This document shows, in pieces, positions 4,685 through 64,000 of a stretch of 64,000 nucleotides of DNA. Position numbers and translations under genes: made by a program. Positions within the stretch are counted from its first letter, which is position 1. Each line of letters begins with the position of its first letter. The notes beneath the pieces were generated by a model. The model was not told where the DNA came from. It made no database searches and worked only from the letters and a program-made list of their open reading frames with translations. Source of the stretch: Deltaproteobacteria bacterium. Its GTDB lineage: Bacteria; Desulfobacterota; Binatia; UBA1149; CAYXZP01. The stretch covers positions 722 to 64,721 of the forward strand of contig JAYGCK010000033.1 in the NCBI GenBank assembly GCA_046583395.1. The letters run 5' to 3'.

Positions 4685-4781
4685 CAGTCTCCCTCCCTAT
4701 CCCCACCGGGGCCTAAGGCCCCTTCCACTACCGCCTCGCGTACGCGCCGGACTAAGGTCGCGTCGGATAAGGGCTTTCTCC

Positions 4782-7459: not shown

Positions 7460-7509
7460 GGGCCGGTCCTTGCCACGGGCGGGGGCGGACCGCAGGATTC
7501 AGCACTGCC

Positions 7510-19970: not shown

Positions 19971-19980
19971 AGCGTCGGTC

Positions 19981-20622
19981 TTGGCACGCGCTCTTCCCCG
20001 CCCGGGACTTACGGTCATAACCGACCAGGCACTGGCCACCGGCAAGCTCATGACCGTCGTCAGCGCAGCGCTTGAGGGCGGCTGCCGGCTGATTCAACTG
20101 AGACGGCACCGGACCGCGGCCGGACCCCTGCTTGAGCTGGCCCAGCAACTGCGCCGTCTCACCGGCGACTACGATGCGATGCTTGTGATAAACGACCGTG
20201 TCGATATCGCCGTCGAGAGCGGCGCCGACGGTGTGCACCTGCCGACGGCCGGCATGCGGGCGGCCACGGTGCGCAAAATCGTTGGACCCAGGATGCTCAT
20301 CGGACGGTCTGTGCATTCATTCGAAGAGCTAGACGCGCTCTTGCATGATGAGGTCGACTACGTGCATTTCGGCCCTGTTTACGAGACCGATTCCAAACGA
20401 ACGTTTGGTAGTCCGCAGGGTGTGCACAAGCTAGCTGAGGTGGTGAAGCGTGCCGACGGACTGCCCGTCGTGGCCGTGGGAGGCATCCACCGGGGGCGCG
20501 GCCAAGAGGTCGCCCGTACCGGTGCTTGGGGTGCGGCCGTCATCGGCGCCGTTACAGGGGCCGACGACCCCCGGGCCGAAACCGAAGCGCTATTGGCCGC
20601 GCTTGGCCGGCCGCAAGACTAG
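19981..20622 (+). CDS. thiE: Thiamine-phosphate synthase
   Basis: ThiE TIM-barrel motifs (LQLRRHR..., VHLPTAG...). Confidence 0.85.
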   Translation: MARALPRPGLTVITDQALATGKLMTVVSAALEGGCRLIQLRRHRTAAGPLLELAQQLRRLTGDYDAMLVINDRVDIAVESGADGVHLPTAGMRAATVRKIVGPRMLIGRSVHSFEELDALLHDEVDYVHFGPVYETDSKRTFGSPQGVHKLAEVVKRADGLPVVAVGGIHRGRGQEVARTGAWGAAVIGAVTGADDPRAETEALLAALGRPQD

Positions 20623-24008: not shown

Positions 24009-25439
24009 CTAACCCGCCCTGTGCGCGGGCCCGAGCAGGTCGGTGAGCGTCTTTACGGGATTGAAGGTCTGGCGCGGAACCTCGACGAAGACCGTCAACC
24101 AACCCGCCATCGAACCGTTCCATAGTCCGGGGCGCTCAACCGACCGAAGTTCGCGCCCCTCGGCGCTGCGGCTGACCACAAAAGCGCTGTCGCGGTCGAC
24201 ATGCTCGGCCAGTTCGAAGCGGCCGCCGTCGTTCCTTCGTGTCGAGACCACAATATCGACAGGATTGAAGTGGGTGGAAGCGGCGAGAATCCCCTGCTGC
24301 CGGGCCGAATCGGGGTCCATCTGGCTGGTCTCGACAATCTGCAGGCTCGCGCCCCCGTCGCGCTCGACCCAGAAGGGCCCACCGCCGGGAGCCTCAACGT
24401 TGCGTACCATGCCACAGACCCTGAGCGGCCGGTCGAGAAGAGAAATCAGCGTGTCCTTGAGCTCGCGGCGCTCGCCACGCAGCTCGGGCACTTCGAGTCC
24501 GAAGGTGCCGGTGGCCAGACCGGCGGCAGCCTCTATCGCACCGTGCTCGGCCTCATACAGACCGGCCAAGGCGTCAAAGACCCGGTCCTGGAGATCCAGG
24601 AGAAAGCCGGCCAGAGCCTTCTTCCAAACATAAGCGAGGGTCTTGATGCGGTCGGGCACGCAGTTGTCGATGTTCTTTATGAACACGATATCGGCATCCA
24701 TAGCGCCGAGGTTGCCGAGCAGGGAGCCATGACCGCCCGGCCGGAACAGCGGTTGTCCGGCTGGGTCGCGGAACAGGCGGCCCTGTTCGTCTACCGCCAC
24801 CGAGTCAGTCGACGGGTCCTGGCTCGACAGCTCAATCTCATAATCGACATCCAGGGCCTTCTCGTAGGCCGGAACCACCTGTGCGAAAAGTTCCTCGAAA
24901 CTAGCGCGGTGCTGCTCGGAGACCGTGAAATGGATACAGGCCGTGTTGTCGCGGCCACGCGCATAGGCGGCCGCTTCGACCAGGTGCTCCTCGGCCGCGG
25001 TGCGGGCTCCCTCGGGATAATCGTGGAAGGCGACCAATGCCTTGGGCAGGCCGCCATAGCCGAGCCCCGGCCGGTCGAGAATGAAAGCGGCCAGCTCGGC
25101 CGCCCGCCCGTCGCCTCGCAGACCGGCCAGCTGCCCGCCGGCGGCGGCCACCGCCCGTTCTAGTTCCGGATAGAAAGCAAAGTCCTCGAGTGCGGCAAAG
25201 ATACGACCGGCCTCGTCGTTGCCACCGGTAGTACCTTCATCACCGGACAGGGCGGTAAGCGGCTTGAACATGCGCGAGGCCGCGCCCGAGGCCGGCACGA
25301 ACTTGGCCACCCGCAGGTCTAGAGCACGGCGCTCATAGAACAGCGCACGTTCGGTCAGCTCGGGCTCGGTGAGTTCGGCAATACCGTCACCGACCGTGGC
25401 CGGACGCTGCAAGCGGGCGTAACCGGGCGGCTCGGCCAA
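24009..25439 (-). CDS. DUF4301-family protein (UDP-sugar pyrophosphorylase-like nucleotidyltransferase fold)
   Basis: 476 aa; N-terminal region FVPASGAASRMFKPL and FIKNIDNCVPD resemble the NxDN motif of UGPase-type nucleotidyltransferases. Family assignment is from memory. Confidence 0.45.
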   Translation of the reverse strand: MAEPPGYARLQRPATVGDGIAELTEPELTERALFYERRALDLRVAKFVPASGAASRMFKPLTALSGDEGTTGGNDEAGRIFAALEDFAFYPELERAVAAAGGQLAGLRGDGRAAELAAFILDRPGLGYGGLPKALVAFHDYPEGARTAAEEHLVEAAAYARGRDNTACIHFTVSEQHRASFEELFAQVVPAYEKALDVDYEIELSSQDPSTDSVAVDEQGRLFRDPAGQPLFRPGGHGSLLGNLGAMDADIVFIKNIDNCVPDRIKTLAYVWKKALAGFLLDLQDRVFDALAGLYEAEHGAIEAAAGLATGTFGLEVPELRGERRELKDTLISLLDRPLRVCGMVRNVEAPGGGPFWVERDGGASLQIVETSQMDPDSARQQGILAASTHFNPVDIVVSTRRNDGGRFELAEHVDRDSAFVVSRSAEGRELRSVERPGLWNGSMAGWLTVFVEVPRQTFNPVKTLTDLLGPAHRAG

Positions 25440-25537
25440 CCAACCGAGCTGCTCGCCAAGACTGTCGTCGCTTATACCGTGGGCCTCGACCTGGCGGCGG
25501 TCATCGGCCGAAAGGGTATCGGGCGGGATGATTCGGT

Positions 25538-25870
25538 TCAGGAAGCGTTCTCCGGTGCCGCGCTCTGGACGACCCCCTCGAGTTCGCCCTTCTCGTAGAG
25601 ACCGACCACTATATCGCAGCCACCCACAAACTCGCCGTCAACGTAGAGTTGCGGAATCGTCGGCCAGCTCGAGTACTGCTTTATTCCCTCGCGGAGCGTG
25701 GGGTCCGAAAGCACGTCGTAACTGGCAAACGGGGTTCCCACGGCGCGCAGAGCCTGGCACACGGTGTTCGAGAACCCGCACTGTGGGGCCTCGGGGGACC
25801 CCTTCATGTAGACAACGACCTTGTCCTTCTCCACCTGTGAGCGAATCTGCTGAAAGATGTCCTCGGCCAT
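25538..25870 (-). CDS. grxD: Grx4-family monothiol glutaredoxin
   Basis: CGFS active site ([11 protein letters not shown]); 110 aa. Confidence 0.85.
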
Positions 25871-31284: not shown

Positions 31285-33768
<2,484 letters not shown>

Positions 33769-35822: not shown

Positions 35823-37958
35823 TTAGAGCGGCGCCAACTCAACCGGAACGCCGTTCATGATGGCGTTGCCGAGAAGCGCCTCAATTGGTCCATCGTCGGT
35901 CAAATCGTTGATAGAGGTGCCCGGACGAGCACTAGCAACGCTCATCTTTGCACCAGGCCGGCTGTGCCCAAAACCGTGGGGCAGGCTGACCACCCCCGGC
36001 ATGATACCTTCATCAACCTCGGCCGTGGCCTCTTCCTGGCCGACCCGGGTACTGACGCTCACACGGGCCCCGTCGGCAATGCCGTAACGCTCGGCGTCGG
36101 CGGGATGGATGAGCAGGGTACAACGGTCACGCCCCTTCATGAGACTCGGGCAGTTGTGCATCCAGGAATTGTTCGAGCGAAGCTGGCGGCGGCCGATGAG
36201 AGTGAATTCGGGAACGGCTTGGGTCGTACCGAGCTCCTGGCGCAAGCGGTCGAGCTCGCCAAAGATGTGCTCGTTGAAAAGGCTCAGCCTACCGTCGTCG
36301 TGTCCGACCGCGCCGCGGTCGAGGCCGCCCTCTTCGAGAGCGCCCAGATCAACACCCGATGGCTGTTCGAGAAGTCCGTCGACGCTCAGTTCGTAGGGAC
36401 CGGCCGCCAGCATCATGTCGATAATCTCGGCCGGCTCCGAGTCGAACACCTTGGTCTGCGAGCCGTCGCCACCACGCAGTTCATCGAGCCGGCGTGCGAG
36501 TCTTCCGAGTATCTCCCATTCGCTGAGCTCGTCGGGGCCGGCCGCAAAGACCGGGCGGCTGAACTTGGCCACGTTTCGCACGGCAAGCGCATTAAACGCC
36601 AGTGAGTACTGATCGTTGGTGAGCGGTGAACGCGGCGGCAAGATGACATCGGCGTGCCGGGTGGTCTCGTTGATGGCCGGGTCGACCGAAACCATGAAAT
36701 CGAGCCCGCCCAAGGCCTCGTCGAGACGCCGCCCGTTGGGCGCAGACAGAGCCGGGTTGCCGGCCATGGTGAACATCGCGCGCACCTGGCCCTGGCCCTC
36801 GGTCTCGATCTCCTCGGCAAGACTTGCCGTGGGAAGCTCACCTCCGAACTCGGCAGTGCCGCGAAGCCGCGAGCGCCAACGCCCGTAATGCCCGCGCGAA
36901 CCACCCCCGGCCGCCGGACGGGTGAACAACAGGCCACCGGCCCGATCGACCCTTCCGGTCAATACGTTGAGGCAATCAATCAAGAAGTTGGCCAAGGTCC
37001 CAAACGATTGCAGGCAGGTCCCGACCCGCCCGTAGCAGGCCGCGCTAGGTGAGGCTGCAAACTCGCGCGCAAGCCGCCTGATGTCGTCTGCATCGATACC
37101 GGTGGCCGTGGACACCGATTCGGGAGTGAACCCTTTGAGCGCTGCTTCAAGCTCGGCCATGCCCTCGGTCCGTCCAGCGCAGGCCCCCAGCTCAACGAAC
37201 CCTTCCTCGAACACGGTGCCGAGCATTGCCGCCAACAACAGCGCATCCGTGCCCGGCCTTATAAAGAAGTGCTGGTCGGCCACATCGGCGGTCTCGGTCC
37301 GGCGCGGGTCAACCACCACCACCTTGCCCCCGCGGCGGCGTATGGCCCGCAGTCTCCCTTTCATATCGGGTGCCGTCATCAGGCTGCCGTTGGAGACCAA
37401 GGGATTGCCCCCGAGGATGAGAAAGAACCGGGTGCGGTCGACGTCGGGTATCGGGAAGCCCAGCTGCCTGCCGTACACGAAATAGGAGGCCAGCATGCGC
37501 GGGAACTGGTCGAGAGAGGAGGCGCTGAAACGTACGCGGCTGCCGAGGGCACGTATGAAGGGTGCCCCGCCCAGGCTGGCAGCGAGGTTGTGGACGGTGG
37601 GATTGCCCAGATAGGTGGCCACCGCATCAGCCCCGTGTTCGGACTGTACGCGGTGGATACCCTGAGCGGCCTTCTCTATGGCCTCGTCCCAGGAGACCTC
37701 GTCCCAGCCACCGCTCCGGCGCACCAGCGGACTGACGACCCGGTCGGGGTCCTCGTGGAGGTCCTTTAGGGCGTGGGCCTTGGGGCAGATATGACCCTTG
37801 GAAAGCGGGTCGTCCTTGTCGCCACGGACCGACAGGACCAGTTCCCCCTCGGTCTCGATAATGACCCCGCAGCAGGCCTCACAGAGATTACAGATACGGT
37901 GGTGAAGCGGCACGAAGGAATTGTCACACAGCGTACCGGCCACGGAAAGGCCGGCCAC
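35823..37958 (-). CDS. Molybdopterin-dependent oxidoreductase (formate dehydrogenase / nitrate reductase superfamily)
   Basis: N-terminal Fe-S cysteine motif CNLCEACCG and MopB catalytic domains; 711 aa. No in-frame TGA, so it is not a Sec-type FdhA. Confidence 0.75.
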   Translation of the reverse strand: MAGLSVAGTLCDNSFVPLHHRICNLCEACCGVIIETEGELVLSVRGDKDDPLSKGHICPKAHALKDLHEDPDRVVSPLVRRSGGWDEVSWDEAIEKAAQGIHRVQSEHGADAVATYLGNPTVHNLAASLGGAPFIRALGSRVRFSASSLDQFPRMLASYFVYGRQLGFPIPDVDRTRFFLILGGNPLVSNGSLMTAPDMKGRLRAIRRRGGKVVVVDPRRTETADVADQHFFIRPGTDALLLAAMLGTVFEEGFVELGACAGRTEGMAELEAALKGFTPESVSTATGIDADDIRRLAREFAASPSAACYGRVGTCLQSFGTLANFLIDCLNVLTGRVDRAGGLLFTRPAAGGGSRGHYGRWRSRLRGTAEFGGELPTASLAEEIETEGQGQVRAMFTMAGNPALSAPNGRRLDEALGGLDFMVSVDPAINETTRHADVILPPRSPLTNDQYSLAFNALAVRNVAKFSRPVFAAGPDELSEWEILGRLARRLDELRGGDGSQTKVFDSEPAEIIDMMLAAGPYELSVDGLLEQPSGVDLGALEEGGLDRGAVGHDDGRLSLFNEHIFGELDRLRQELGTTQAVPEFTLIGRRQLRSNNSWMHNCPSLMKGRDRCTLLIHPADAERYGIADGARVSVSTRVGQEEATAEVDEGIMPGVVSLPHGFGHSRPGAKMSVASARPGTSINDLTDDGPIEALLGNAIMNGVPVELAPL

Positions 37959-37975
37959 GGCTCTTTGTACCGGCC

Positions 37976-38374
37976 TTAGTGCTTGGTATCGCCGGCCGGC
38001 ACCTCGCAGTCGACGCAGTAGTACCGGTCGCCCAAGAGGCGGTGGTCGTGCTCGAGTTTGATGGCCAGCGTGAGCACCCGCTCCATACCCGACGGACTAC
38101 CGGGCTCATACGGACGGTCGGTCAGTTCGATGTGGACCACGGCGCGGCCGTCACCACCGTCTTCGACCTTAAAGATCCCCGGATATTCCCCGGTCCGCGC
38201 GGCCACAACGCCCAGCAAGGGAAGAAGCTGTTTCCACAGTGACTGCAGACCGGCACCGAGAACGAGAGCGCGGGGGTCGGCCTTGGCACGCAAAGCTTTG
38301 GCGGCCGCACGCAAGGGGGCATCGGTGGCCTCGACCTCACCCTCGTCGCGTTCTTTTACCTCCTTGGCGTCCAT
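37976..38374 (-). CDS. Hypothetical protein with a C-terminal CxxC (132 aa)
   Basis: 18 bp upstream of the Mo-oxidoreductase gene on the same strand; ends ...YYCVDCEVPAGDTKH. Confidence 0.35.
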   Translation of the reverse strand: MDAKEVKERDEGEVEATDAPLRAAAKALRAKADPRALVLGAGLQSLWKQLLPLLGVVAARTGEYPGIFKVEDGGDGRAVVHIELTDRPYEPGSPSGMERVLTLAIKLEHDHRLLGDRYYCVDCEVPAGDTKH

Positions 38375-41603: not shown

Positions 41604-42645
41604 TACGGCCAAAGCAGTGGCGCGCGCTGAGACCGCGCTAAGCTCCCTCAATCAGTCCCTGCACGAGATGATGGAGAACGATGAGCGGGTCCTGCTCCTC
41701 GGCGAGGACATCCTCGACCCCTACGGCGGAGCCTTCAAGGTAACCAAGGGCTTATCGGACCGTTTTCCCGAGCGGGTCTTTACCACTCCCATCTCCGAGT
41801 CGGCCATCGTCGGCATGGCCAACGGTTTGGCCATGCGCGGCTTGCGGCCCATAGCCGAGATTATGTTCGGCGACTTTCTGGCTCTTGCCGCCGACCAACT
41901 CATCAACCACGCGGCCAAGTTCCGCTGGATGTACAACGAGGGGGTCACCGTACCGATGGTCGTGCGTGCTCCGGTCGGTGCCCGCCGCGGCTACGGCCCG
42001 ACCCACAGCCAGTCACTCGAAAAACACTTCATCGGAGTTCCCGGGCTCATGGTCGTGGCCCCGCATATACTTGGCGACCCGGGCGCGCTGCTAAGACAGG
42101 CCACACTCGATTGCGACGAGCCCGTGGTGTTCGTCGAGAGCAAGCTCTGTTACGGGCGCCAGCTCGTCACCAATGTCGCCGGTGCGACGGTCGAACTGCT
42201 CGCCACCGATGCCGCCCCCTTCCCGACCAGTTATTTGCACCACGATGAGGCCGAGACCGGCCCGGACGCCATCCTTCACTGCTACGGGGCGATGACGCCC
42301 TTTTGTTTGGAGGCTGTGGAAAAATTGCGGGAAGAAGAAGGCCTATTCGTCGACCTTGCCGTGTTCACACAGCTCTCGTCGGTCCCGGGCGACCACATCG
42401 AGCACATCTTCGGCACCCGCAAACCGGCGCTATGCATCTACGCTGAAGAGGCCAGCCCCAGCGGTGGCTGGGGAGCCGAACTGATCGCCCGTTACGAGCA
42501 GGCCCGCACCGGCGCGGGCGCACCGGCTATCCGTCACGAACGGGTCGCAGGCGACGACGTGCCGATTGCCGGCAGCCGTGAGCTCGAGACCGCCTGCCTC
42601 CCGCAGACCGACGACATCGTCGGCCGTATCTTGGACTGCTTCTAG
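41593..42645 (+). CDS. Alpha-ketoacid dehydrogenase E1 component beta subunit
   Basis: Transketolase-like pyrimidine-binding and C-terminal domains; overlaps the E1-alpha stop. Confidence 0.85.
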   Translation: MKPSTAKAVARAETALSSLNQSLHEMMENDERVLLLGEDILDPYGGAFKVTKGLSDRFPERVFTTPISESAIVGMANGLAMRGLRPIAEIMFGDFLALAADQLINHAAKFRWMYNEGVTVPMVVRAPVGARRGYGPTHSQSLEKHFIGVPGLMVVAPHILGDPGALLRQATLDCDEPVVFVESKLCYGRQLVTNVAGATVELLATDAAPFPTSYLHHDEAETGPDAILHCYGAMTPFCLEAVEKLREEEGLFVDLAVFTQLSSVPGDHIEHIFGTRKPALCIYAEEASPSGGWGAELIARYEQARTGAGAPAIRHERVAGDDVPIAGSRELETACLPQTDDIVGRILDCF

Positions 42646-42656
42646 AGAGCCGGCGC

Positions 42657-43274
42657 TCAGTCGTCGGCCGCCAGCCGTTTATCGACCACGTGGCGGTAGA
42701 AGCGAAGCTCCTGTGCACCCGGGATAGGCAAGATACCGTCCACCACAACAGTGGGAACGCTGGAGATTCCGGCACGCGTGGCCTCCATATGCTCGGCCAC
42801 GACCAGTTCGGCCAGACCTTGGTCGTCCAGGTCTCGTACAAAGTCGGCGGCCTCGAGTCCGCAGGCCCGGGCAAGCTCCGTGGCCGTAGCCGGGTCGGTC
42901 ACGTCGCGGTTGTCGTAGAAGTAGGCCTTCATCATGGCCAGATGGTAGGCGGCGAAGGCCCCTTGCCGGGCGGCGGCCTTCAGGGCTACCTGCCCGGGGA
43001 TAGAGTGCGAGGGCGCCGGTTCATCAGTGGCCCACTCACGGAACTCGGGCGCACCCGGGACCGAGGCCGGCCTCCGCCATGAGCGGGTATAACGCCTGAA
43101 CTTTTCCAACGGCTTGGGCTCGGGGTTGGGACGCAACAGGAAGCTCTTCCACTCAAGTTCGAGGGTATCGGGATATTCGGTGGTGAGTTCGGCGAGACCG
43201 ACGGCCGCCACATAGCACCACGGTCAAAGAGGGTCCGAATAGACCGTGAACCTTACTGTACGATGGCCGGGCAT
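42657..43274 (-). CDS. FrnE/DsbA-like thiol-disulfide oxidoreductase, predicted selenoprotein (in-frame TGA at 43224..43226 read as Sec; active site U-P-W-C)
   Basis: The ORF track gives only 42657..43211, starting at GTG just after PWCY. In the same frame upstream, ATG(43274)-MPGHRTVRFTVYSDPL-TGA-PWCYVAAVGLAEL... reproduces the DsbA/FrnE N-terminus (...VySD.xCPwCY.g...EvEW.sF.L.P) with TGA in place of the first Cys. The ATG lies 3 bp after the stop of the upstream gene. A candidate hairpin starts 12 nt 3' of the TGA. Confidence 0.65.
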
Positions 43275-43277
43275 CGT

Positions 43278-43994
43278 TTAGGACATGGTCTCGAGATGGC
43301 CGCGCAGGCGGCCGGCGTTGCGAAACCTCTTGGTGATGAGGGACCGTTTCAGCCCGCAGCAAATCGATTTTATCTCGGGGGGCTGCTTGGCGTAGTGACG
43401 CGCGCCGCCGGTCGCGTCGTAGAGCAGGCGGATCAAAGAGCAAACATCGTCGTCAAAGTGTTCGCGGGTGGCCCTGCCCCAGTGGAACATATCGACGACC
43501 TTGACGCGGAAACCGAGCCCGCGCCGGTTCACTATGATGTTATCCGAGTGGAGGTCGCCGTGGTACTCGCCCTGTCCGTGCATCTCCTCTATCCCGCAGG
43601 TGAGAGCGTAAAGCAGGTGCAAGGCCTCGAAGGGGTGCAAGCGTTTGCCCCGCTGACGGTTGAGCATGTCGGTGAGAAGCTCGCCACGCACGTACTCCGA
43701 CACGAGAAAGGGTATGTCCTGGCCCTGCCAACGGAAGGCCTCCTGGGTGTGATACTGGATTAGTATCGAACAGTCGCGGAGTTTGTTGAGCTTTTTGGCG
43801 TAGAAGTTGATGGCCCGGTTGCCCGGGTTGCGCTTGGGATAGAAGAACTTGGCCGCACGCTCGATACCCGTAGCGGCCTCGGTCACATGATAGACCTCAC
43901 CTTCCCAGCCCTGTCCGAGAAGTTCGCCGACCACATACTTGCGCGCGAGTTTGCGTCCGGGCCGGAGCCCGAAGGATTCGAGTCCATTGGCCAA
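43278..43994 (-). CDS. Small atypical protein-kinase-like protein (PKL fold)
   Basis: Gly-rich loop LGQGWEGEVY, conserved Lys (RAAKFF), catalytic-loop HGDLHSDNIIV and a DMF motif in place of DFG. The 238-aa size is like RIO/Bud32/Kdo-kinase-type minimal kinases. Confidence 0.55.
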   Translation of the reverse strand: MANGLESFGLRPGRKLARKYVVGELLGQGWEGEVYHVTEAATGIERAAKFFYPKRNPGNRAINFYAKKLNKLRDCSILIQYHTQEAFRWQGQDIPFLVSEYVRGELLTDMLNRQRGKRLHPFEALHLLYALTCGIEEMHGQGEYHGDLHSDNIIVNRRGLGFRVKVVDMFHWGRATREHFDDDVCSLIRLLYDATGGARHYAKQPPEIKSICCGLKRSLITKRFRNAGRLRGHLETMS

Positions 43995-43999
43995 TATCG

Positions 44000-44698
44000 T
44001 CAGGCCGGGGGTTCCGGAAGGTCCTCGGCGAGTCCGGCCCTCACACGGGCCGCGGTCGCAGAACGCAAGGCTTCCTTGCTCTTGGCAAAGGCACGGGCCG
44101 ACAGCGCGGCCATACCCTCGGCCTCTCCGAGAGCCCGGTCGAGCAAGCTGTCGCCGTCAACGACCTCGTCGGCGTAGCCGGCGTCTACAGCCTCGGCGGG
44201 CGAATATAGGCGGGCGCGCAAAGTGGCGTCGCTCAGATGGCGCCTGGAAAGGCGGTCGTTGGCCAGCTGTATCGCAAAATCGGGAAGCTCCATGCCGATG
44301 GCGACCTCGTTGAGGCCAATCTTAAAATCGCCGGCCGTCACCAGCCGGTAATCACCGACCATGACGATGAGAGAACCGAGAGCCACGGCATGCCCGGTGC
44401 AGGCCACAACGACGGGCTGCGGATGCATGTAAAGGTCTACCAGGAAGTTCGCGCCCTGCTTTACCAGCCGGACGAGCTCGCCGATGTCATCGCCGCGCAT
44501 TACCGACAAGTCGAAGCCCCCCGAGAAGCGTCCGGGCCGGCCCATGAGAACCACGGCCTCGGCCTCTTCGGTGGCGGCGGCCAACATGCGCGACAGCTCG
44601 TCGAGAACGGCGAAGGAAACGGCGTTGGCCTTGCCGTCATCGAGCGTGATGACGGCAACGTTACCTTCTATCCTGTAGCTTGGGCTGGTCTGCGACAC
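44000..44698 (-). CDS. Enoyl-CoA hydratase/isomerase (crotonase) family protein
   Basis: Crotonase-fold N-terminus (IEGNVAVITLDDGKANAVS) with oxyanion-hole regions. Confidence 0.8.
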   Translation of the reverse strand: MSQTSPSYRIEGNVAVITLDDGKANAVSFAVLDELSRMLAAATEEAEAVVLMGRPGRFSGGFDLSVMRGDDIGELVRLVKQGANFLVDLYMHPQPVVVACTGHAVALGSLIVMVGDYRLVTAGDFKIGLNEVAIGMELPDFAIQLANDRLSRRHLSDATLRARLYSPAEAVDAGYADEVVDGDSLLDRALGEAEGMAALSARAFAKSKEALRSATAARVRAGLAEDLPEPPA

Positions 44699-44746
44699 GG
44701 TCCGAGGCTGGAATATCCGACCCCCGGATTGGAAGCAATATCAGTG

Positions 44747-45448
44747 CTAGCGAAGTTCGCCGAACAACGCTTCGATGCGGGCGGCGTTGGCGCCGAGGTC
44801 CCCGCGCCCGTCTCGTGATTTCGAGCGAACGTCAATCCGTGAACCGTCGCCCTCGGCGCGCACGCGCACGACCACATCATCGACAAACCGGAATATTCGG
44901 GTGCTCGATGTTGCCTCGATGCGGCCGGCGGCAGGGTCGAGAGTGATGATATCGGTGCGCGGCATACTCAACAGCGCCGCCTCGACCTTGGCCACAGCCT
45001 CACCGGGCGGCCAGTCGCTCAGGAGCGAGCCGAGACCAGGGTAGGCATCGGTCTGCTGGTCGGCGAACTCGGCGCCGGGGTAGGACATGTCGCGCCCGTG
45101 GTTGGCCTCGAGCTCGGCCACCTTGGCAAAAGCGGGAGGGTCGGCGGTATCCGTAGTGATATCGTTAATCGGCGGCAGCCCGAGCCCGGCCCCTCCGGCC
45201 CCGACCGTGACCGCAAGCGCGGCCAACCCAAGCACCAAGGAGCGGCGGGCCTGTCGATGTCCGCCTATCATCGCCACCCCGCCGGCCACGACAGCGGTCA
45301 GACCCAACGGCAAGCTAAGACCAAAGATGGCAAACCCGGTCATCGGCGCGGCCAATCCGGCCGCGCACAAGGCGGGCCCCACGACCAAGACAACGAGCGC
45401 GCCGCGTGCGGCTAACCGGGCGATCTGCTCAGACAACGCCACTGACAA
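44747..45448 (-). CDS. DUF1499 domain-containing membrane protein
   Basis: N-terminal TM helices followed by a DUF1499-like region (PPINDITTDTADPP). Confidence 0.5.
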   Translation of the reverse strand: MSVALSEQIARLAARGALVVLVVGPALCAAGLAAPMTGFAIFGLSLPLGLTAVVAGGVAMIGGHRQARRSLVLGLAALAVTVGAGGAGLGLPPINDITTDTADPPAFAKVAELEANHGRDMSYPGAEFADQQTDAYPGLGSLLSDWPPGEAVAKVEAALLSMPRTDIITLDPAAGRIEATSSTRIFRFVDDVVVRVRAEGDGSRIDVRSKSRDGRGDLGANAARIEALFGELR

Positions 45449-46886
45449 AATTACCGTGGAAGCCCATCGGGATTCGGTGCTCTAAGTGCGCCCTGGCTAT
45501 AGGACCTACCACCAGGTCGGTCGCATCGAACACCGCCACGTAGCTCCCGTCCTGGGGCGCATCGTACACGACCGAGAGCAAAAAACCATCGCCCTCCGGG
45601 CTATCCGCCGAACGCGGCACGAACACCGGTTCGCCCGGGAACTGGCCCTGGCCGAAGTCGTAGTAGGCAGACGTGCCCCCTTGGCGGTCGTAACGGCACA
45701 GCGAGCCACCTGCCAGCGGCGAACCGGACGGACCTTCAACCAGCGCAAAGCCGTAACGGTTCTTGTAGCCGGCCAGGCGTTCGTCGAGCTTGGGAAACTC
45801 GGCACTGCGGTCGCCCAAGCGCGTCTCGCGACAGGTCCCCCCCTCGAGGTCGAACTCGTAGAGGTATGGGTAGGCACCGGTAGCTATGCCGAGTTGGTCG
45901 CCCCTCGCCGCCGATAGGGTGTCGAGCAGGCCGGCGCCGTCAAGATAGGAACAGGCATCCATGTAGACCTTGCCCTCCTCCTCGTAGGCGTTGCCAGTGT
46001 GGAAGATGAAGGCCGGAGTGGGCGCGTCGAACCAGCGTACCGCGCTTCCCGCTTCGCGCCGCCGTATGCCGAACCTGAGGCCCTTGTCGGGTTGCCAGCT
46101 AACGCATTCGCCGAAGCTTCCACCGGCCATCAGCCGTTCACCGTCGATGACGGTGGGGCAAAGCAACAGGATGATGTGGTTCTCGGTGATGGCGATGTCG
46201 TGCATCATCACCGGATAAGGCGCGGCGACCGGCTCGGCCAGCGAGGCGCGGCCATCGGGTTCGACAACGTAGACCTGGTAGTAGGGCTCGAAAGGTTGAT
46301 AACCGTGTATGACCATCTGCCCGGTCCTGCCGTCGATGTGCGGATGAGCACTCACGCTCATGCCCAGACGCTCGCAACCAAAGTCGGTCTCGCCACGCGG
46401 GTCCAGGCTCAGACCGTCTATTTCGAATGGCCAGGCGTTCTCGACCAAGGCCATCAGCTTGCCGCCATGATGGACCACGTTGGTGTTGTGCTGCTGCCGA
46501 ATGGACACCCGCTCGGTAGGGTTGTCGACCTGGACACCCACCGAGTTCATGCAGAACCGCCCCACCTCGGCCTCGACCAGAAAGCTCTCGTTCCTTACGA
46601 AACGTCCGCGGTAAGCGACCCGCCCGTCCTCAAAACGGAAGGCGTGAACCATGCCGTCACCGTCAAAGAGGTGCAGGGCCTCGTAACCGCCCTCGGGAAG
46701 GATGTGTTGTGAGGGTCCGTTGCGATAAAGGCTGCCGTTGAGCTCACGCGGAATCTCGCCATCGACCCGTTCTATGACGTATGCCTTCTCGTCGTGGGAG
46801 GGCCTCCACAAATTGCTCATCCAATGCTCGGGACCGAGACCCAAGGGGGCCAGAGGATCCGTGCCGCTAAGTGCCGTTTGCGTCAT
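45429..46886 (-). CDS. Carotenoid oxygenase family protein (RPE65 / lignostilbene dioxygenase-like)
   Basis: His-ligand-bearing motifs including HDIAITENHIILL; the start is set at the internal Met (MTQTALSG). Confidence 0.8.
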   Translation of the reverse strand: MTQTALSGTDPLAPLGLGPEHWMSNLWRPSHDEKAYVIERVDGEIPRELNGSLYRNGPSQHILPEGGYEALHLFDGDGMVHAFRFEDGRVAYRGRFVRNESFLVEAEVGRFCMNSVGVQVDNPTERVSIRQQHNTNVVHHGGKLMALVENAWPFEIDGLSLDPRGETDFGCERLGMSVSAHPHIDGRTGQMVIHGYQPFEPYYQVYVVEPDGRASLAEPVAAPYPVMMHDIAITENHIILLLCPTVIDGERLMAGGSFGECVSWQPDKGLRFGIRRREAGSAVRWFDAPTPAFIFHTGNAYEEEGKVYMDACSYLDGAGLLDTLSAARGDQLGIATGAYPYLYEFDLEGGTCRETRLGDRSAEFPKLDERLAGYKNRYGFALVEGPSGSPLAGGSLCRYDRQGGTSAYYDFGQGQFPGEPVFVPRSADSPEGDGFLLSVVYDAPQDGSYVAVFDATDLVVGPIARAHLEHRIPMGFHGNFVSGVV

Positions 46887-47724: not shown

Positions 47725-48108
47725 GTGAACAGTAGAGCAGCGATGACGGTACGGATACTTCTCGGTGTGTCCATGTTGGTCTTCGGCCTCAACAAGATCT
47801 TCCACTTCTTCGCACCGCCCCCACACAGCGGTGACGCCGCCAAGGCCTTCCTCGGCGGTCTGGCCGGGTCCGGGTATTTCTTCCCCTTCCTCGGCGGTGT
47901 CGAAGCCCTGTGTGGAGCGGCCCTGGTCGCCGGTCTCTTCGTTCCGTTGGCGCTTGTAGTGCTGGCCCCGGTGATGCTCAACATCGTCCTGTTCCATCTG
48001 TTCCTCGACATCGAGGGGATGGCCGTCGGCGGTCTGCTCGGAATCATGCAGGCCTACCTCATGTGGAGCTACCGTAACTCGTTCTCGAGCCTGTTGCGGC
48101 CCCGTTGA
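47725..48108 (+). CDS. DoxX-like family membrane protein
   Basis: 127 aa with 3-4 TM helices and a DoxX-like pattern; overlaps the downstream rSAM start. Confidence 0.45.
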   Translation: MNSRAAMTVRILLGVSMLVFGLNKIFHFFAPPPHSGDAAKAFLGGLAGSGYFFPFLGGVEALCGAALVAGLFVPLALVVLAPVMLNIVLFHLFLDIEGMAVGGLLGIMQAYLMWSYRNSFSSLLRPR

Positions 48109-49085
48109 CCGCGGCACCAAATTTTAGCGAGAGCTTGCGCGAGCACGGCATCGGACCGCTGCTCAGGCACCGGCCCACGACCGTACAGATTAACGTCGGC
48201 AAGCTCTGTAACCAGGCCTGCCACCACTGTCACGTCGATGCCGGCCCCAAGCGCAGCGAACGCATGGACCGGGCCACGGCCGAGTGCCTGGTGGGGCTGG
48301 TAGAGAACGACCCGGCCATCTCAACGGTAGACATCACCGGCGGCGCGCCCGAGCTGAACGAGAATTTTGCCTATCTTGTGCGCTCGCTCAGTTCGCCGTC
48401 ACGCCGGGTAATCGACCGCTGCAACCTCACGGTCATCTACGCCAAGGGCATGGGCTGGTTGCCCGCGTTCCTGGCCGAGCACAGGGTCGAACTGGTCTGT
48501 TCGCTGCCCTGCTACACGGCCGACAATACCGACAGCCAGCGCGGCCAGGGCGTGTTCGAGGCCAGCATCCGCGCGCTCGGGCTCTTGAACGGGCTCGGCT
48601 ACGGCCGTCCCGGCTCGGGTCTTCGTCTGGACCTGGTCTACAATCCGCTCGGCCCCACTCTCCCACCCGACCAGGCCGAGTTGGAAAGCCGCTACCGCAG
48701 CGAGCTCGACGCGCGCTTTGGCATAAGTTTCAACAGCCTGTTCACGATAACCAACATGCCGATATCTCGTTTCGCCGAACAACTACGCCGAAGCGGCCAA
48801 CACGAGTCCTACCTCGGGCTTCTCGTCAACCACTTCAACCCGGCCACCGTGGAAGGCCTGATGTGCCGCGAACTGGTCAGCGTCGGCTGGCAAGGCTCGC
48901 TGTACGATTGCGACTTCAACCAGATGCTCGAAATCCCGTTGGCCGGGGGCGGACGCTACGGCCACATCGACGACCTCGATAACTTCGGGCAACTCGCCGG
49001 CCTCGGGGTGGCCACGGCAGAGCACTGTTACGGTTGTACGGCGGGAGCGGGTTCTAGCTGTTCGGGAGAACTGACCGCCGACTAG
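48105..49085 (+). CDS. arsS: ArsS-family radical SAM protein (arsenosugar-biosynthesis radical SAM (seleno)protein family); Cys form
   Basis: Non-canonical rSAM cluster motif CNQACHHC near the N-terminus and the family-typical C-terminal Cys-rich tail [15 protein letters not shown]; about 326 aa. Confidence 0.6.
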
Positions 49086-61755: not shown

Positions 61756-62265
61756 TCAGAGTTCTTCCTGGTCGGCGAAGCGGCCCCGGTAACGCGCCGA
61801 ACCCTCGGTGCGTTCAAAGATCAGCTGACAGATGCGCGTACCGGCAACGAGCTTGAGGCGCCGGTCGGCCAGGTTCGAAATCTCAAGCACCTGGCGGTTA
61901 TCGACCCCCGGACTGACAAAGCCGGCGCTCACGTGCACGAGCAGTCCCAATCGCGCAAAACGCGACCGGCCTTCCAGCCGCGCCGAGATATCGGCTGCCA
62001 AGCGAATACGCTCCAAGGTTATGCCAAGGACCGTTTCGCCGGGCGCGAGCTCATACCCCCCGCCGAGCGCCACCACGTGCGAATGCTCACGGACATCGAC
62101 CTCCTCGTTGACCTCCAACGCCCCGCCATCGCTGTCGAGGACACGAAGCTCGCTACCCAAGCGCAGGTCGACCGAGGCGGGTCCGACCGCGGACTCATCA
62201 TAGGGATCGATAGTTATGTTGCCGGCCTCGACCTCGGCCAGTATGGCGTCGTGACTCAGAATCAT
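61756..62265 (-). CDS. dcd: dCTP deaminase (dUTPase-like fold)
   Basis: N-terminus MILSHDAILAEVEAGNITIDPYD...VGPASVDLRLG. Confidence 0.7.
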   Translation of the reverse strand: MILSHDAILAEVEAGNITIDPYDESAVGPASVDLRLGSELRVLDSDGGALEVNEEVDVREHSHVVALGGGYELAPGETVLGITLERIRLAADISARLEGRSRFARLGLLVHVSAGFVSPGVDNRQVLEISNLADRRLKLVAGTRICQLIFERTEGSARYRGRFADQEEL

Positions 62266-63611
62266 CTGCCCGGCCGCATCGCCAGACGGGTGACCACCTC
62301 GAACAGAATCTCGGTTCCCAGTCTCAGGTTGGCCTGACTAATGCGCTCGTCGTGCCCATGGATGGTCGCCAGTTCCTCACGCTCGACCAAGGCGGGGATA
62401 AAGCCGTAGGCCTCGCCGCCGGATTTTCTGTAGGCGTGAGAATCGGTGAACCCGGGCGACAGCATCGGCATCAGACCACCCTCGTCACCGTAGCGCTCAC
62501 GGATGACGTCGCTCATGACCGCGACGGCTAGCGTATCGACCGAGGAACGGCCGGATACATGCTCGAGGACCCTTTCGACCACGACATCGTCGTCGTCGAT
62601 GACAGCCTCAATCTCGGCCACGAAGCGGTCGGGGTCGGTGTCGGGCAAGAGCCGGCAGTCAAGGGTGGCCTCGGCGCCCGCCGGGATGACGTTGTGCTTC
62701 TTGCCGGCACGGAGTCCGGTGACATTGACCGTATCGGTGGTAATGGCCCGGATGTATGGGTCGACGCTGCCCATCGCGACGAGGTTCTCGGTATCGGCGG
62801 CATCAAAGTCGGCGTCGAAAAAGCCGTGCTCCTTGAGCGTTGCAATCATCGCACCCACCTCGGAGGTCAGCCGTGGCGTGGCCGCCCGGGCCTCTATTCG
62901 CCCCAGCGCGGCCACGAGTTTGACCACCGCATTGTCATCGTGGGGCACCGAGGCATGCCCCGGACGTCCCTTGGCGCGCAGTCTCAACCAGCAGGGCGAT
63001 TTTTCGCTGAGCCCGAGACCGAACAGCTTGGTGGGCTTGCCCATAAAACTGGAAAACCCGTAGGCACCCTCGTTGAACACGAAGTCGGCGTCGAACAGTT
63101 CGGGCGCGGTCTCGAGCAAGTGGTGGACACCCTTAGAACCACCGGCCTCTTCATCAGCCACGGCCACAAAGACCAGGTCGCGGCCCAATGTCAGACCGTG
63201 GCGTTTGGCCAGCAGCATCACCATGAGCTCCATCACGCCCATGCCCTTCATGTCCAGAGTTCCGCGACCCCAGATAACACCGTCAATAAGCTCGCCCCCG
63301 AAGGGGTCACGGGTCCAGTGTTCGCGCTCTACCGGAACCACGTCGATGTGCGAGAGCAGACATATCGGTCTCAGGCCGTCACCACCGGTACCCTCGAGCC
63401 TGGCCGAGATAGACACCCGTCCCTCCCCTGCGTCGTGAAGCCGGCTCGGTATACCGTCGCGTTCGAGGATTCCCTGCAGGAACAGCGCTCCGGCTTCCTC
63501 GTTGCCCGGCGGGTTGGTGGTGTCTATGCGGATATAGTCTCGGAGGATTCCCGTGGCTTCCTCGGTAACCACCGCCCAATCGATTGATGCTGTTTGTATG
63601 CCCTTCCCCAT
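62262..63611 (-). CDS. M20-family metallopeptidase (ArgE/DapE/CPG2-like)
   Basis: M20 metal-binding motifs (HIDVV, DMKG, ADEEAGG); the start is set at the internal Met (MGKGIQT). Confidence 0.75.
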   Translation of the reverse strand: MGKGIQTASIDWAVVTEEATGILRDYIRIDTTNPPGNEEAGALFLQGILERDGIPSRLHDAGEGRVSISARLEGTGGDGLRPICLLSHIDVVPVEREHWTRDPFGGELIDGVIWGRGTLDMKGMGVMELMVMLLAKRHGLTLGRDLVFVAVADEEAGGSKGVHHLLETAPELFDADFVFNEGAYGFSSFMGKPTKLFGLGLSEKSPCWLRLRAKGRPGHASVPHDDNAVVKLVAALGRIEARAATPRLTSEVGAMIATLKEHGFFDADFDAADTENLVAMGSVDPYIRAITTDTVNVTGLRAGKKHNVIPAGAEATLDCRLLPDTDPDRFVAEIEAVIDDDDVVVERVLEHVSGRSSVDTLAVAVMSDVIRERYGDEGGLMPMLSPGFTDSHAYRKSGGEAYGFIPALVEREELATIHGHDERISQANLRLGTEILFEVVTRLAMRPGR

Positions 63612-63718
63612 CAGGGCCGCGATAATAGTTGCTCGCCCCGGGGAGGGAAAGGGTTGACTGTACGGTGCCGCGGTCCGACAATCCCCGGTCGGCCGGCTGC
63701 CGACAACGAGGGAGACAG

Positions 63719-64000
63719 ATGGCAAACAAGGATTACGAAAGCATAAGAGTAGAACGCAACGGAGCCGTGGCCGAGGTCGTCCTTGACCGCCCCGAGGCGC
63801 TCAACGCGATGCGCATCTCCTTTTTCTACGAGATCAAACGCGCCTTTGAAGAGATAGCCGGCGACGACGATATCAGGGCTGCGGTCATCTGGGCCGAGGG
63901 GCGGCTGTTCACGGCCGGGCTCGATCTGAAAGAGGCCGCCGGAGGCGTTCTGGGTAGCGGGGATAACGGCAACGCATCGAGCCAGGCAAGCAGCAACCTC
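63719..64000 (+). CDS. Enoyl-CoA hydratase/isomerase family protein (5' partial; runs off the window end)
   Basis: ATG preceded by GAGGGAG; crotonase N-terminus (IRVERNGAVAEVVLDRPEALNAM...FTAGLDLKE). Confidence 0.6.
   Translation, partial: MANKDYESIRVERNGAVAEVVLDRPEALNAMRISFFYEIKRAFEEIAGDDDIRAAVIWAEGRLFTAGLDLKEAAGGVLGSGDNGNASSQASSNL

What the first reader, a model, noticed from the sequence alone, without database searches (positions are those of the whole stretch)
42657..43274. Predicted selenocysteine-containing FrnE/DsbA-like oxidoreductase (UPWC active site) hidden behind an in-frame TGA
The ORF caller reports a 184-aa DsbA-like ORF that begins at a GTG immediately after the residues PWCY, so it lacks a CxxC motif. 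In the same frame upstream there is an ATG at 43274..43272, 16 sense codons, then TGA at 43226..43224. Read with Sec the translation is MPGHRTVRFTVYSDPL-U-PWCYVAAVGLAELTTEYPDTLELEWKSFLLRP.... This aligns with the canonical DsbA/FrnE N-terminus (...IDVwSDxxCPwCYiG...EVEWhsFeL), with the TGA exactly at the first catalytic Cys. The ATG sits 3 bp after the stop of the upstream kinase-like gene in the same frame, which fits translational coupling in an operon. A GC-rich hairpin begins about 12 nt 3' of the UGA (GUGGCGGC-CGUCGGUCUC-GCCG..CCAC). That is the position expected for a bacterial SECIS, and it has G/U in the apical loop. A TGC-to-TGA pseudogene is the alternative. However, perfect conservation on both sides of the TGA and the intact 205-codon frame favour a genuine selenoprotein. 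Automated annotation would probably miscall this as a truncated DsbA. The nearby ArsS-family gene, whose family includes selenoprotein variants, also hints at selenium use.
Basis: partly seen in the sequence, partly recalled or inferred. Interest (0 to 1): 0.8.

Follow-up and report, generated by a model that had tools for sequence, protein, structure and literature searches.

The report
Selenocysteine-containing DsbA/FrnE-like oxidoreductase gene
This gene encodes a cytoplasmic DsbA/FrnE-type redox enzyme whose catalytic cysteine is replaced by selenocysteine, read from an in-frame TGA. It is real and is mis-annotated as a truncated protein in public databases, but it belongs to a selenoprotein family known since 2005.

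Summary
On the minus strand there is an ATG at 43274..43272, 16 sense codons, TGA at 43226..43224, then 188 more codons to the stop at 42659..42657.

Read through, the protein is a full-length DSBA domain (PF01323). The TGA sits on the first Cys of the FrnE-type CPWC motif.

The TGA is not decay or a sequencing error:
- Nine independent assemblies carry the identical gene.
- 59 related loci (41-98% identity) have TGA at this codon, 27 have TGC/TGT, and none has TAA/TAG.
- The codons upstream of the TGA evolve under protein-level constraint.
- TGA also ends 18 of 43 other genes in the window, so the codon is not reassigned.

Sec forms keep a small hairpin about 14 nt after the UGA, with G-U in the apical loop. 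Cys forms do not. The hairpin is maintained at synonymous sites, and the window's version meets most of the published bacterial SECIS criteria.

One thing is untested: no selA, selB, selC or selD lies in the 64 kb, so the organism's Sec machinery could not be checked.

The family ("DsbA-like protein", UxxC, COG2761) was described in 2005 and is among the ten most widespread bacterial selenoprotein families. This is a new member of a known kind, and its practical value is correcting annotation.

The parts
42657..43274 (-). Full coding sequence of the Sec-containing DsbA/FrnE-like oxidoreductase (205 aa plus stop; U at residue 17)
   Evidence: Translation. PF01323 matches residues 11-195, E=3.2e-21. 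FrnE 5CNW/5CP1 at E=3e-12. Identical in 9 independent assemblies.
43272..43274 (-). ATG start codon, 3 nt after the TAA stop (43278..43280) of the upstream kinase-like gene and in the same frame
   Evidence: It is the first possible start after the in-frame stop. The same arrangement is found in the syntenic orthologue L001.
43224..43226 (-). In-frame TGA, the predicted selenocysteine codon (U17)
   Evidence: Aligns with the first Cys of SDxxCPWC in Cys-form homologues and in FrnE. TGA in 59 related loci, TGC/TGT in 27, TAA/TAG in none.
43215..43226 (-). Redox motif U17-P18-W19-C20 (UxxC)
   Evidence: In the proxy model the equivalent Cys17 lies at the N-terminus of helix alpha1, directly after strand beta1.
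43190..43210 (-). SECIS-like hairpin core: UGGCGGCC-GUC-GGU(CU)CGCCG. The apical loop GUC lies at 43200..43202, 21 nt after the UGA.
   Evidence: RNAfold gives -7.9 kcal/mol. G25-U26 sits in the apical loop, as in 39 of 51 Sec-form orthologues. The helix is 87.9% paired in Sec forms against 48% in Cys forms.
43180..43221 (-). Optional outer helix (GUGGUG / CACCAC) enclosing the core hairpin in the minimum-energy fold
   Evidence: -17.7 kcal/mol, z = -0.08. Not conserved in the 76% orthologue L001, so of doubtful relevance.
42657..43211 (-). The 184-aa GTG-start ORF that gene callers report. It is a truncated artefact lacking strand beta1 and the UxxC motif.
   Evidence: NCBI, JGI and ENA records called at 184 aa or shorter.
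42753..42758 (-). V173-P174, the conserved Val-Pro of the thioredoxin-fold cis-Pro loop (GISSVPTV)
   Evidence: P174 is invariant and V173 at least 90% conserved in alignments A1 and A4. Assignment to the cis-Pro loop is inferred from knowledge of the DsbA family.
43278..43994 (-). Upstream 238-aa kinase-like gene, probably co-transcribed and translationally coupled
   Evidence: Partial Pkinase match. 91% identical in L001 and 69-76% in L086, L099 and L114, always directly upstream of the DsbA-like gene.
44000..44698 (-). Enoyl-CoA hydratase/crotonase-family gene of the conserved cassette
   Evidence: PF00378. An ECH gene lies upstream of the DsbA-like gene in many Sec and Cys loci.

Best explanation
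The gene at 43274..42657 (minus strand) encodes a 205-residue cytoplasmic thiol-disulfide oxidoreductase of the DsbA/FrnE type. Its attacking residue in the UPWC motif is selenocysteine, encoded by the in-frame UGA at 43226..43224.

Inferred mechanism, from how bacterial Sec insertion is known to work. Translation starts at the ATG 3 nt after the upstream gene's stop. When the ribosome reaches the UGA, a small hairpin starts about 14 nt downstream, with G-U in its apical loop 21 nt from the UGA. The hairpin recruits SelB-GTP-Sec-tRNA(Sec), so Sec is inserted instead of termination.

The selenolate at the N-terminus of helix alpha1 then attacks substrate disulfides. Cys20 resolves the mixed intermediate through a selenenylsulfide.

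What is shown: the conserved TGA, the coding flanks, the domain, the motif position, and the Sec-specific hairpin across the family.

What is inferred: SelB-dependent decoding in this organism, the redox chemistry, and the substrate.
For: 1. Frame and domain.
2. The TGA aligns with the first Cys of CPWC in Cys-form homologues and in solved FrnE.
3. The TGA is conserved in 59 loci (51 unique sequences, 41-98% identity). 27 loci have TGC/TGT and none has another stop. This includes a syntenic orthologue and a non-syntenic one.
4. Nine independent assemblies are identical over all 618 nt.
5. Codons -9..-1 before the TGA show a nonsynonymous/synonymous ratio of 1.16 in Sec forms, against 1.64 in Cys forms and 2.4-5.3 in the gene body. 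Between the window and L001, 6 of 9 amino-acid-identical upstream codons differ synonymously. The upstream stretch is therefore translated.
6. A hairpin with its apical loop on nt 25-26 occurs in 39 of 51 Sec forms and 7 of 25 Cys forms (Fisher p=1e-4).
7. After synonymous recoding, Sec forms give 19.3 +/- 3.2 (maximum 30 in 300 trials) against 39 observed. Cys forms give 7.2 against 7 observed.
8. The helix is 87.9% paired in Sec forms (slid controls 28-54%) and 48% in Cys forms.
9. The window's hairpin has a 3-nt loop starting with G, 21-nt spacing and -7.9 kcal/mol. This fits three of the four published bSECIS criteria outright (PMC13188914).
10. TGA is an ordinary stop for 18 of 43 window genes.
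11. A proxy model of a 59%-identical Cys form (pLDDT 97.6) has a DsbA fold. Its best matches are cytoplasmic DsbA-like proteins (FrnE TM 0.84), and the Cys lies at the N-terminus of alpha1.
12. The family is a documented selenoprotein family (PMC1088965, PMC1794560, PMC5029168, PMC13188914).
Against: - No selA, selB, selD or tRNA-Sec lies in the 64-kb window, so the Sec trait of this organism is unverified.
- The window's own hairpin is not more stable than shuffled or synonymously recoded sequence. Its upper stem is only 3 bp before a 2-nt bulge.
- Covariation in the family is thin: 2 of 6 pairs show compensatory changes. Support comes mostly from Sec-specific conservation, and the sequences are not phylogenetically independent.
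- The G-U in the loop is also a conserved Val codon.
- Rfam SECIS models give no significant hit.
- There is no experimental evidence.
Confidence: 0.9

Rival explanations
1. Pseudogene: a TGC/TGT-to-TGA nonsense mutation has inactivated an ordinary Cys-type FrnE-like gene.
For: A single-base change from TGC or TGT gives TGA. Cys-form relatives exist.
Against: TGA is kept in 51 unique sequences down to 41% identity with no other lesions. The upstream codons are under purifying selection. Nine assemblies are identical. A Sec-specific hairpin is maintained at synonymous sites.
Confidence: 0.02
2. The annotated 184-aa protein is the real product. UGA terminates a 16-codon upstream ORF, and translation restarts at GTG 43211, giving a DsbA-fold protein without a redox motif.
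For: Gene callers and NCBI, JGI and ENA annotate it this way. DsbA-fold proteins without a CxxC motif exist; YjbH-type adaptors are structural neighbours.
Against: The product would lack strand beta1 and the start of helix alpha1 of the thioredoxin fold. The restart codon differs among orthologues (ATG, GTG or TTG at varying positions). In contrast, the upstream V.FTV.SD.L-U-PWC stretch is conserved at protein level exactly as in Cys forms.
Confidence: 0.03
3. The UGA is read through, but not as Sec. Examples would be near-cognate Trp, Cys or Arg insertion, or another suppressor mechanism.
For: The Sec machinery could not be shown for this organism. The window's hairpin alone is not statistically exceptional.
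Against: The codon sits exactly on the catalytic Cys of a redox motif, which is the hallmark of Sec/Cys pairs. A hairpin fitting most bSECIS criteria is kept only in TGA forms. The family is an accepted selenoprotein family, with members in Sec-decoding genomes including the myxobacterium Anaeromyxobacter dehalogenans (PMC1794560). TGA serves as a normal stop elsewhere in the window.
Confidence: 0.05
4. Sequencing or assembly error: the true codon is TGC.
For: None beyond the prior that single-base errors occur.
Against: Nine assemblies from different sequencing runs and one NCBI MAG are identical over all 618 nt. A 98%-identical JGI contig (L062) and a 76%-identical orthologue also have TGA.
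Confidence: 0.005

Closest known systems
DsbA-like selenoprotein family ('DsbA-like protein form 1', PF01323/COG2761, UxxC). First described in the Sargasso Sea selenoproteome (Zhang, Fomenko & Gladyshev 2005, PMC1088965). Found in Anaeromyxobacter dehalogenans, Desulfovibrio and Desulfotomaculum (PMC1794560). Present in 41 organisms in Peng et al. 2016 (PMC5029168).
   Same: DSBA domain. Sec at the first position of a UxxC motif, aligned with Cys in homologues. A downstream hairpin with G in the apical loop. Marine and deltaproteobacterial/myxobacterial setting. Sec and Cys forms interleave on the tree, with at least 10 switches, as reported for redox selenoproteins generally.
   Different: Nothing essential. 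I could not align against the published representative (NIP15863.1), so identity of the subfamily is inferred from domain, COG and motif. This particular gene and its 90% cluster are annotated in public databases as truncated non-selenoproteins.
FrnE of Deinococcus radiodurans (DR_0659; PDB 5CNW, 5CP1, 5CO3; cd03024). A cytoplasmic disulfide oxidoreductase/isomerase (PMC8945050).
   Same: Best solved-structure match by sequence (E=3e-12) and among the best by fold (TM 0.84 for the proxy model). Same SDxxCPWCY active-site context. No signal peptide: strand beta1 starts at residue 7.
   Different: Sec replaces Cys22. The window protein ends at residue 205 and lacks FrnE's C-terminal tail with the CXXXXC motif that regenerates the active site, so recycling of the oxidised enzyme must differ, as for S. 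roseofulvus FrnE. Only about 26% identity. The clade has its own invariant motifs (FRRYTxSW and PPSHSxP) in a region where FrnE aligns poorly.
[quoted passage not shown]
   Same: The window protein also reads D14-P-L-U17-P18 (DxxUP). Its gene family is very often adjacent to an enoyl-CoA hydratase gene; in L004 the ECH stop overlaps the DsbA-like start (TAATG).
   Different: In the window, ECH is a separate gene two genes upstream. No in-frame ECH-DsbA fusion was found in any held locus. I could not obtain the representative sequence, so whether form 2 is this clade is open.
Periplasmic DsbA (E. coli type, CPHC)
   Same: Same Pfam family and overall fold (thioredoxin fold with a helical insertion).
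   Different: No signal peptide, a CPWC-type motif, and its closest structural relatives are cytoplasmic DsbA-like proteins (FrnE, DsbM, YjbH, 3KZQ). It is not a periplasmic disulfide-bond-forming oxidase.

Membership tests
Bacterial selenoprotein gene (UGA recoded as Sec) | In-frame UGA aligned with a Cys in homologues (Sec/Cys pair) | tested here: met
   The UGA aligns with the first Cys of CPWC in 27 Cys-form loci, in many database homologues and in FrnE.
Bacterial selenoprotein gene (UGA recoded as Sec) | UGA conserved in orthologues, with coding conservation on both sides | tested here: met
   59 loci have TGA. Upstream codons have a nonsynonymous/synonymous ratio of 1.16, against 1.64 in Cys forms. 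Nine assemblies are identical.
Bacterial selenoprotein gene (UGA recoded as Sec) | bSECIS hairpin directly downstream. Published criteria: 3-9 nt apical loop, G in the first two loop positions, 16-37 nt from the UGA, MFE <= -7.5 kcal/mol, 4-16 bp upper stem (PMC13188914, Fig. 2A). | tested here: inconclusive
   Three criteria are met outright in the window: a GUC loop (3 nt, G first), 21-nt spacing and -7.9 kcal/mol. The stem criterion is met only if a bulge is tolerated: the stem is 3 bp, a 2-nt bulge, then 5 bp. The window's hairpin is not exceptional against shuffles (z = -0.24). At family level the hairpin is Sec-specific and held at synonymous sites.
Bacterial selenoprotein gene (UGA recoded as Sec) | Genome encodes selA, selB, selC (tRNA-Sec) and selD | not testable with these tools
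   None lies in the 64-kb window or in 25 related loci.
Bacterial selenoprotein gene (UGA recoded as Sec) | UGA is not globally reassigned in the organism | tested here: met
   TGA ends 18 of 43 Pfam-supported genes in the window.
Bacterial selenoprotein gene (UGA recoded as Sec) | Selenium demonstrably incorporated (75Se labelling or mass spectrometry) | not testable with these tools
   Requires an experiment.
DsbA-like selenoprotein family, form 1 (PF01323/COG2761, UxxC) | DSBA-like thioredoxin domain | tested here: met
   PF01323 at 76.4 bits against a cutoff of 25.6, residues 11-195. DsbA fold in the proxy model.
DsbA-like selenoprotein family, form 1 (PF01323/COG2761, UxxC) | Sec in a UxxC redox motif at the N-terminus of helix alpha1 | tested here: met
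   U17-P-W-C20. The equivalent Cys17 precedes helix 18-37 in the proxy model.
DsbA-like selenoprotein family, form 1 (PF01323/COG2761, UxxC) | Sequence similarity to the published representative (NIP15863.1) | not testable with these tools
   The accession cannot be fetched with these tools.
FrnE subfamily of DsbA (cd03024) | CP(W/F)C active site in a cytoplasmic DsbA-like domain with no signal peptide | tested here: met
   UPWC, with Sec in place of the first Cys. Strand beta1 begins at residue 7, leaving no room for a signal peptide. Best PDB sequence hit is FrnE at E=3e-12.
FrnE subfamily of DsbA (cd03024) | C-terminal CXXXXC tail. It is present in many FrnE proteins but not all (PMC8945050). 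| tested here: not met
   The protein ends at residue 205 (…VVDKRLAADD) with no C-terminal Cys pair. The FrnE alignment stops at FrnE residue 207 of 260.
DsbA-like selenoprotein form 2 (crotonase/ECH family protein, DxxUP) | DxxUP motif | tested here: met
   D14-P15-L16-U17-P18.
DsbA-like selenoprotein form 2 (crotonase/ECH family protein, DxxUP) | Crotonase/ECH identity of the same polypeptide. This is my reading of the published name; the representative sequence was not seen. | tested here: not met
   ECH is a separate gene (44000..44698), with a kinase-like gene in between. No in-frame fusion was found in any held locus.
Periplasmic DsbA oxidase | Signal peptide and a CPHC-type motif | tested here: not met
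   The N-terminus MPGHRTVRFTVYSDPLUPWC has no hydrophobic leader, and the motif is UPWC.

The most novel reading that the evidence does not exclude
The Sec (or Cys) DsbA-like enzyme may not be a general cytoplasmic disulfide reductase. It may instead be a dedicated component of a conserved, uncharacterised cassette: [DUF1499] - enoyl-CoA hydratase - [small atypical kinase-like protein] - DsbA-like(U/C) - M20 peptidase. In that role it would act on a specific small-molecule or acyl/peptidyl-thiol substrate.

The clade-specific invariant motifs (FRRYTxSW and PPSHSxP) would form the substrate site. The literature's 'crotonase-family selenoprotein / DsbA-like form 2' would be the same system.
Probability: 0.2. 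Interest if true: 0.45.

Novelty: new member of a known kind. Interest (0 to 1): 0.3.

Why it matters
- **Annotation.** This gene, the other members of its 90% cluster and roughly 50 related clusters are recorded in NCBI, JGI and ENA as N-terminally truncated "DsbA family proteins" that lack their active site. Correcting them restores a redox enzyme and flags these marine delta/myxobacterial lineages as probable selenium users.
- **Biology.** It adds one more case to a well-known pattern, a thiol oxidoreductase with frequent Sec/Cys switching. It does not change current understanding.
- **Possible lead.** The conserved ECH / kinase-like / M20 neighbourhood is a modest lead towards the still-unknown physiological role of FrnE-like selenoproteins.

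Tried and rejected
- **Rfam at gathering threshold on the whole window:** no hits.
- **Rfam, permissive, on 43100..43300:** only a chance-level SECIS_3 hit (13.3 bits against 63, E=2.7) that does not even cover the hairpin. This is uninformative, because bacterial SECIS elements are family-specific.
- **Thermodynamic stability of the window's hairpin** against dinucleotide shuffles and synonymous recodings: not exceptional. Single-sequence stability was dropped as an argument.
- **Overall MFE of nt 13-45** does not separate Sec from Cys forms. Only the position-specific hairpin does.
- **Crude scan for other in-frame TGA junctions in the window:** only GC-rich off-frame noise, no second selenoprotein candidate.
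- **Pfam/NCBIfam annotation of about 55 window ORFs** looking for SelA, SelB or SelD: none.
- **ARAGORN on the window and on 25 Sec-bearing loci:** no tRNA-Sec.
- **Genome-collection scan with the single protein:** only one close relative, an uncultured Myxococcales MAG. The other hits were 22-32% identical DsbA-like genes and were not used.
- **In-frame ECH-DsbA fusions**, tested to explain the literature's 'form 2': none found.
A 59%-identical Cys-form homologue was modelled as a proxy instead.
- **ArsS as a hint of selenium use:** rejected, because it is the Cys form here.

Full report
**1. The observation**

Reading the minus strand of 42500..43500 and translating it confirms every coordinate. 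The upstream gene ends with TAA at 43280..43278. Three bases later, in the same frame, is ATG 43274..43272. Sixteen sense codons follow (MPGHRTVRFTVYSDPL), then TGA at 43226..43224, then PWCYVAAVGL… open to the stop at 42659..42657.

The mechanical ORF list reports only the 184-aa GTG-start ORF 42657..43211. With Cys written at the TGA, Pfam DSBA (PF01323) matches residues 11-195 at E=3.2e-21, so the domain spans the TGA.

**2. Is the TGA real and conserved?**

A protein search gave a bimodal result. About 50 of the top 65 relatives are called as 165-189-aa proteins that begin just after the position of the CxxC motif. The remainder are 200-225 aa and carry SDxLCPWC.

Fetching DNA for two of the "short" relatives showed the cause. 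A 76%-identical, fully syntenic orthologue from an uncultured Myxococcales MAG reads …KVKFTVYSDPL-TGA-PWCYVAAVGL. A 60%-identical orthologue in a different gene context reads MVRFVVYSDVL-TGA-PWCYNAAVRL.

A metagenome scan returned 80 more loci. Over all held loci with the motif, the active-site codon is TGA in 59, TGC or TGT in 27, and never TAA or TAG. Identities to the window range from 41 to 98%.

The protein's own 90% cluster has 19 members, all called at 184 aa or shorter. They include NCBI MFP6599386.1 and MFP6609925.1, annotated "DsbA family protein [Deltaproteobacteria bacterium]". Nine independent assemblies from different sequencing runs carry a 618-nt gene identical to the window's, TGA included. 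Sequencing error and recent decay are therefore excluded.

**3. Is the stretch upstream of the TGA translated?**

In Sec forms, the nine codons before the TGA show a nonsynonymous-to-synonymous difference ratio of 1.16. The ratio is 1.64 in Cys forms and 2.4-5.3 in the gene body.

Between the window and its 76% orthologue, 6 of 9 amino-acid-identical upstream codons differ synonymously and one differs non-synonymously. This is the signature of a translated, constrained beta-strand, not of a leader or an upstream ORF.

TGA ends 18 of 43 Pfam-supported genes in the window, so the codon is not reassigned.

**4. SECIS**

The window's RNA folds into UGGCGGCC-GUC-GGU(CU)CGCCG at nt 17-37 from the U of UGA (43210..43190). 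The energy is -7.9 kcal/mol, the apical loop is 3 nt and starts with G, and the loop lies 21 nt from the UGA.

This meets the loop, G, spacing and energy criteria of the published bSECIS model (PMC13188914, Fig. 2A). The upper stem is only 3 bp before a 2-nt bulge. The hairpin is no more stable than shuffled (z = -0.24; z = -0.08 for the extended fold) or synonymously recoded sequence. On its own it is compatible with a SECIS but not compelling.

The family supplies the stronger argument:
- Most Sec forms carry CGGGGC-CGUGC-GCCUCG or CGGGGCG-GUC-CGCCUCG at the same place.
- The predicted apical loop holds nt 25-26 in 39 of 51 unique Sec sequences and 7 of 25 Cys sequences. A stem of at least 5 bp occurs in 27 of 51 against 2 of 25 (Fisher p of about 1e-4 for each).
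- After synonymous recoding with family codon usage, Sec forms drop to 19.3 +/- 3.2 (maximum 30 in 300 trials) and 7.4 +/- 2.5. Cys forms sit exactly on their recoded expectation, 7 against 7.2 and 2 against 1.9.
- On ungapped alignments, the helix 18-23/29-34 is 87.9% paired in Sec forms (slid controls 28-54%) and 48% in Cys forms (slid controls 34-55%).

Caveats:
- Only 2 of 6 pairs show compensatory changes.
- The sequences are related, so the p-values overstate independence.
- The loop's G-U is also a conserved Val codon.
- Within the window's own clade, the hairpin codons show 1 synonymous change in 8 identical codons, a G-C to G-U change, against 46% gene-wide. This is suggestive only (P of about 0.09).
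- Rfam SECIS models give nothing, as expected for family-specific bacterial elements.

**5. What the protein is**

The best solved relative by sequence is FrnE of Deinococcus radiodurans (5CNW/5CP1, E=3e-12). The TGA aligns with the first Cys of SDIACPWCY.

A 59%-identical Cys-form homologue was modelled instead, with pLDDT 97.6. It has strand beta1 at residues 7-13, the Cys at residue 17 and helix alpha1 at 18-37.

Its best structural matches are cytoplasmic DsbA-like proteins: FrnE at TM 0.84, DsbM, YjbH, 3KZQ and 2IN3. Kappa-GST, HCCA isomerase and periplasmic DsbA rank lower.

The window protein has no room for a signal peptide. It keeps the V173-P174 loop. It lacks FrnE's C-terminal CXXXXC tail, which in D. 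radiodurans FrnE regenerates the active site (PMC8945050).

The likely chemistry is inferred: selenolate attack from U17, resolved by C20.

**6. Context**

No selA, selB, selD or tRNA-Sec lies in the window or in 25 related loci. The organism's Sec trait is therefore untested. The precedent is that the myxobacterium Anaeromyxobacter dehalogenans decodes Sec and has a DsbA-like selenoprotein (PMC1794560).

The neighbouring ArsS (TIGR04167) is the Cys form (…GSSCSG…), so it is not evidence for selenium use.

Among the closer relatives, a cassette recurs in both Sec and Cys forms: [DUF1499] - ECH - [kinase-like] - DsbA-like(U/C) - M20 peptidase. The window has DUF1499 - ECH - kinase-like - DsbA-like, but the M20 gene is not adjacent.

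A rough NJ tree interleaves Sec and Cys forms, with at least 10 switches, and places the window in a Sec-dominated clade.

**7. Comparison with what is known**

"DsbA-like protein" (COG2761, UxxC) was reported as a new selenoprotein family in the Sargasso Sea study of 2005, with nine sequences and a predicted SECIS (PMC1088965). It was then found in sequenced Deltaproteobacteria and Clostridia (PMC1794560).

It ranks tenth among bacterial selenoprotein families, with 41 organisms (PMC5029168, Table 3). [quoted passage not shown]

The window protein fits both motifs (D-P-L-U-P-W-C) and sits near an ECH gene. No in-frame ECH fusion exists in any held locus, and the representative sequences could not be fetched, so the form assignment stays open.

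**8. Verdict**

The gene is, with about 0.9 confidence, a genuine selenoprotein gene that automated pipelines truncate. It is a new member of a well-known family rather than a new kind of thing.

Interest is modest (0.3). The value lies in annotation and in a small lead on the conserved ECH / kinase-like / M20 neighbourhood.

Noticed in passing
window 43278..43994 (-): A 238-aa kinase-like protein with only the N-terminal half of a Pkinase domain (profile positions 1-141 of 263; HGDLHSDNIIV catalytic-loop-like motif). It sits between the ECH and DsbA-like genes, and its stop is 3 nt before the DsbA-like ATG. It is more conserved than the DsbA-like gene itself: 91% identity in L001 and 69-76% in L086, L099 and L114, against 51-76% for the DsbA-like gene. 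Function unknown.
   Followed up: partly
window 42657..45481 (-); loci L001, L004, L067, L073, L075, L082, L083, L086, L091, L099: A recurrent cassette, [DUF1499] - enoyl-CoA hydratase - [kinase-like] - DsbA-like(U or C) - M20 peptidase, occurs in both Sec and Cys forms. In the window the M20 gene is not adjacent; an M20 gene lies at 62262..63800. This may relate to the literature's 'crotonase-family / DsbA-like form 2' selenoprotein.
   Followed up: partly
window 48078..49085 (+): ArsS (arsenosugar radical SAM (seleno)protein, TIGR04167, 423 bits). The family's GxxU position is Cys here (…[14 protein letters not shown]), so this copy is not a selenoprotein.
   Followed up: yes
database proteins P0001-P0063; cluster of P0001: Roughly 50 clusters of 'DsbA family protein' in NCBI, JGI, ENA and Logan are N-terminally truncated calls that start at assorted ATG, GTG or TTG codons just after a missed Sec-TGA. 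This is a systematic annotation error across the clade.
   Followed up: partly
window protein residues 59-66 and 87-93 (about 43100..43077 and 43016..42996, -): Clade-specific invariant motifs F59-R-R-Y62-T63-x-S65-W66 and P87-P88-S89-H90-S91-x-P93. They fall in a region where FrnE aligns only with gaps. They are a candidate substrate-binding site. Their position relative to U17 in 3D was not examined.
   Followed up: no
window 35823..38096 (-): A molybdopterin oxidoreductase resembling the formate dehydrogenase alpha subunit (TIGR01591, 227 bits, far below the 666 cutoff). It has no in-frame TGA, so it is not a Sec-type FdhA. It is syntenic in L001.
   Followed up: no
window 25538..25870 (-): A monothiol glutaredoxin (CGFS active site) directly downstream of a DUF4301 gene (24009..25637).
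   Followed up: no
L104 (TGA form) and L120, L130, L131 (Cys forms): The reading frame stays open for 200 to more than 1000 codons upstream of the active-site codon, up to the contig edge. This could mean N-terminal fusions in some relatives, or just GC-rich open frames. Not resolved.
   Followed up: no
window 6179..7498, 19083..20622, 31993..33768: Thiamine-related genes (ThiI, ThiG, ThiE-like TMP synthase, ThiC) are scattered through the window. A B12-dependent class II ribonucleotide reductase lies at 1859..4696. This is ordinary housekeeping content, consistent with a chromosomal region of a 64% GC delta/myxobacterial MAG.
   Followed up: no
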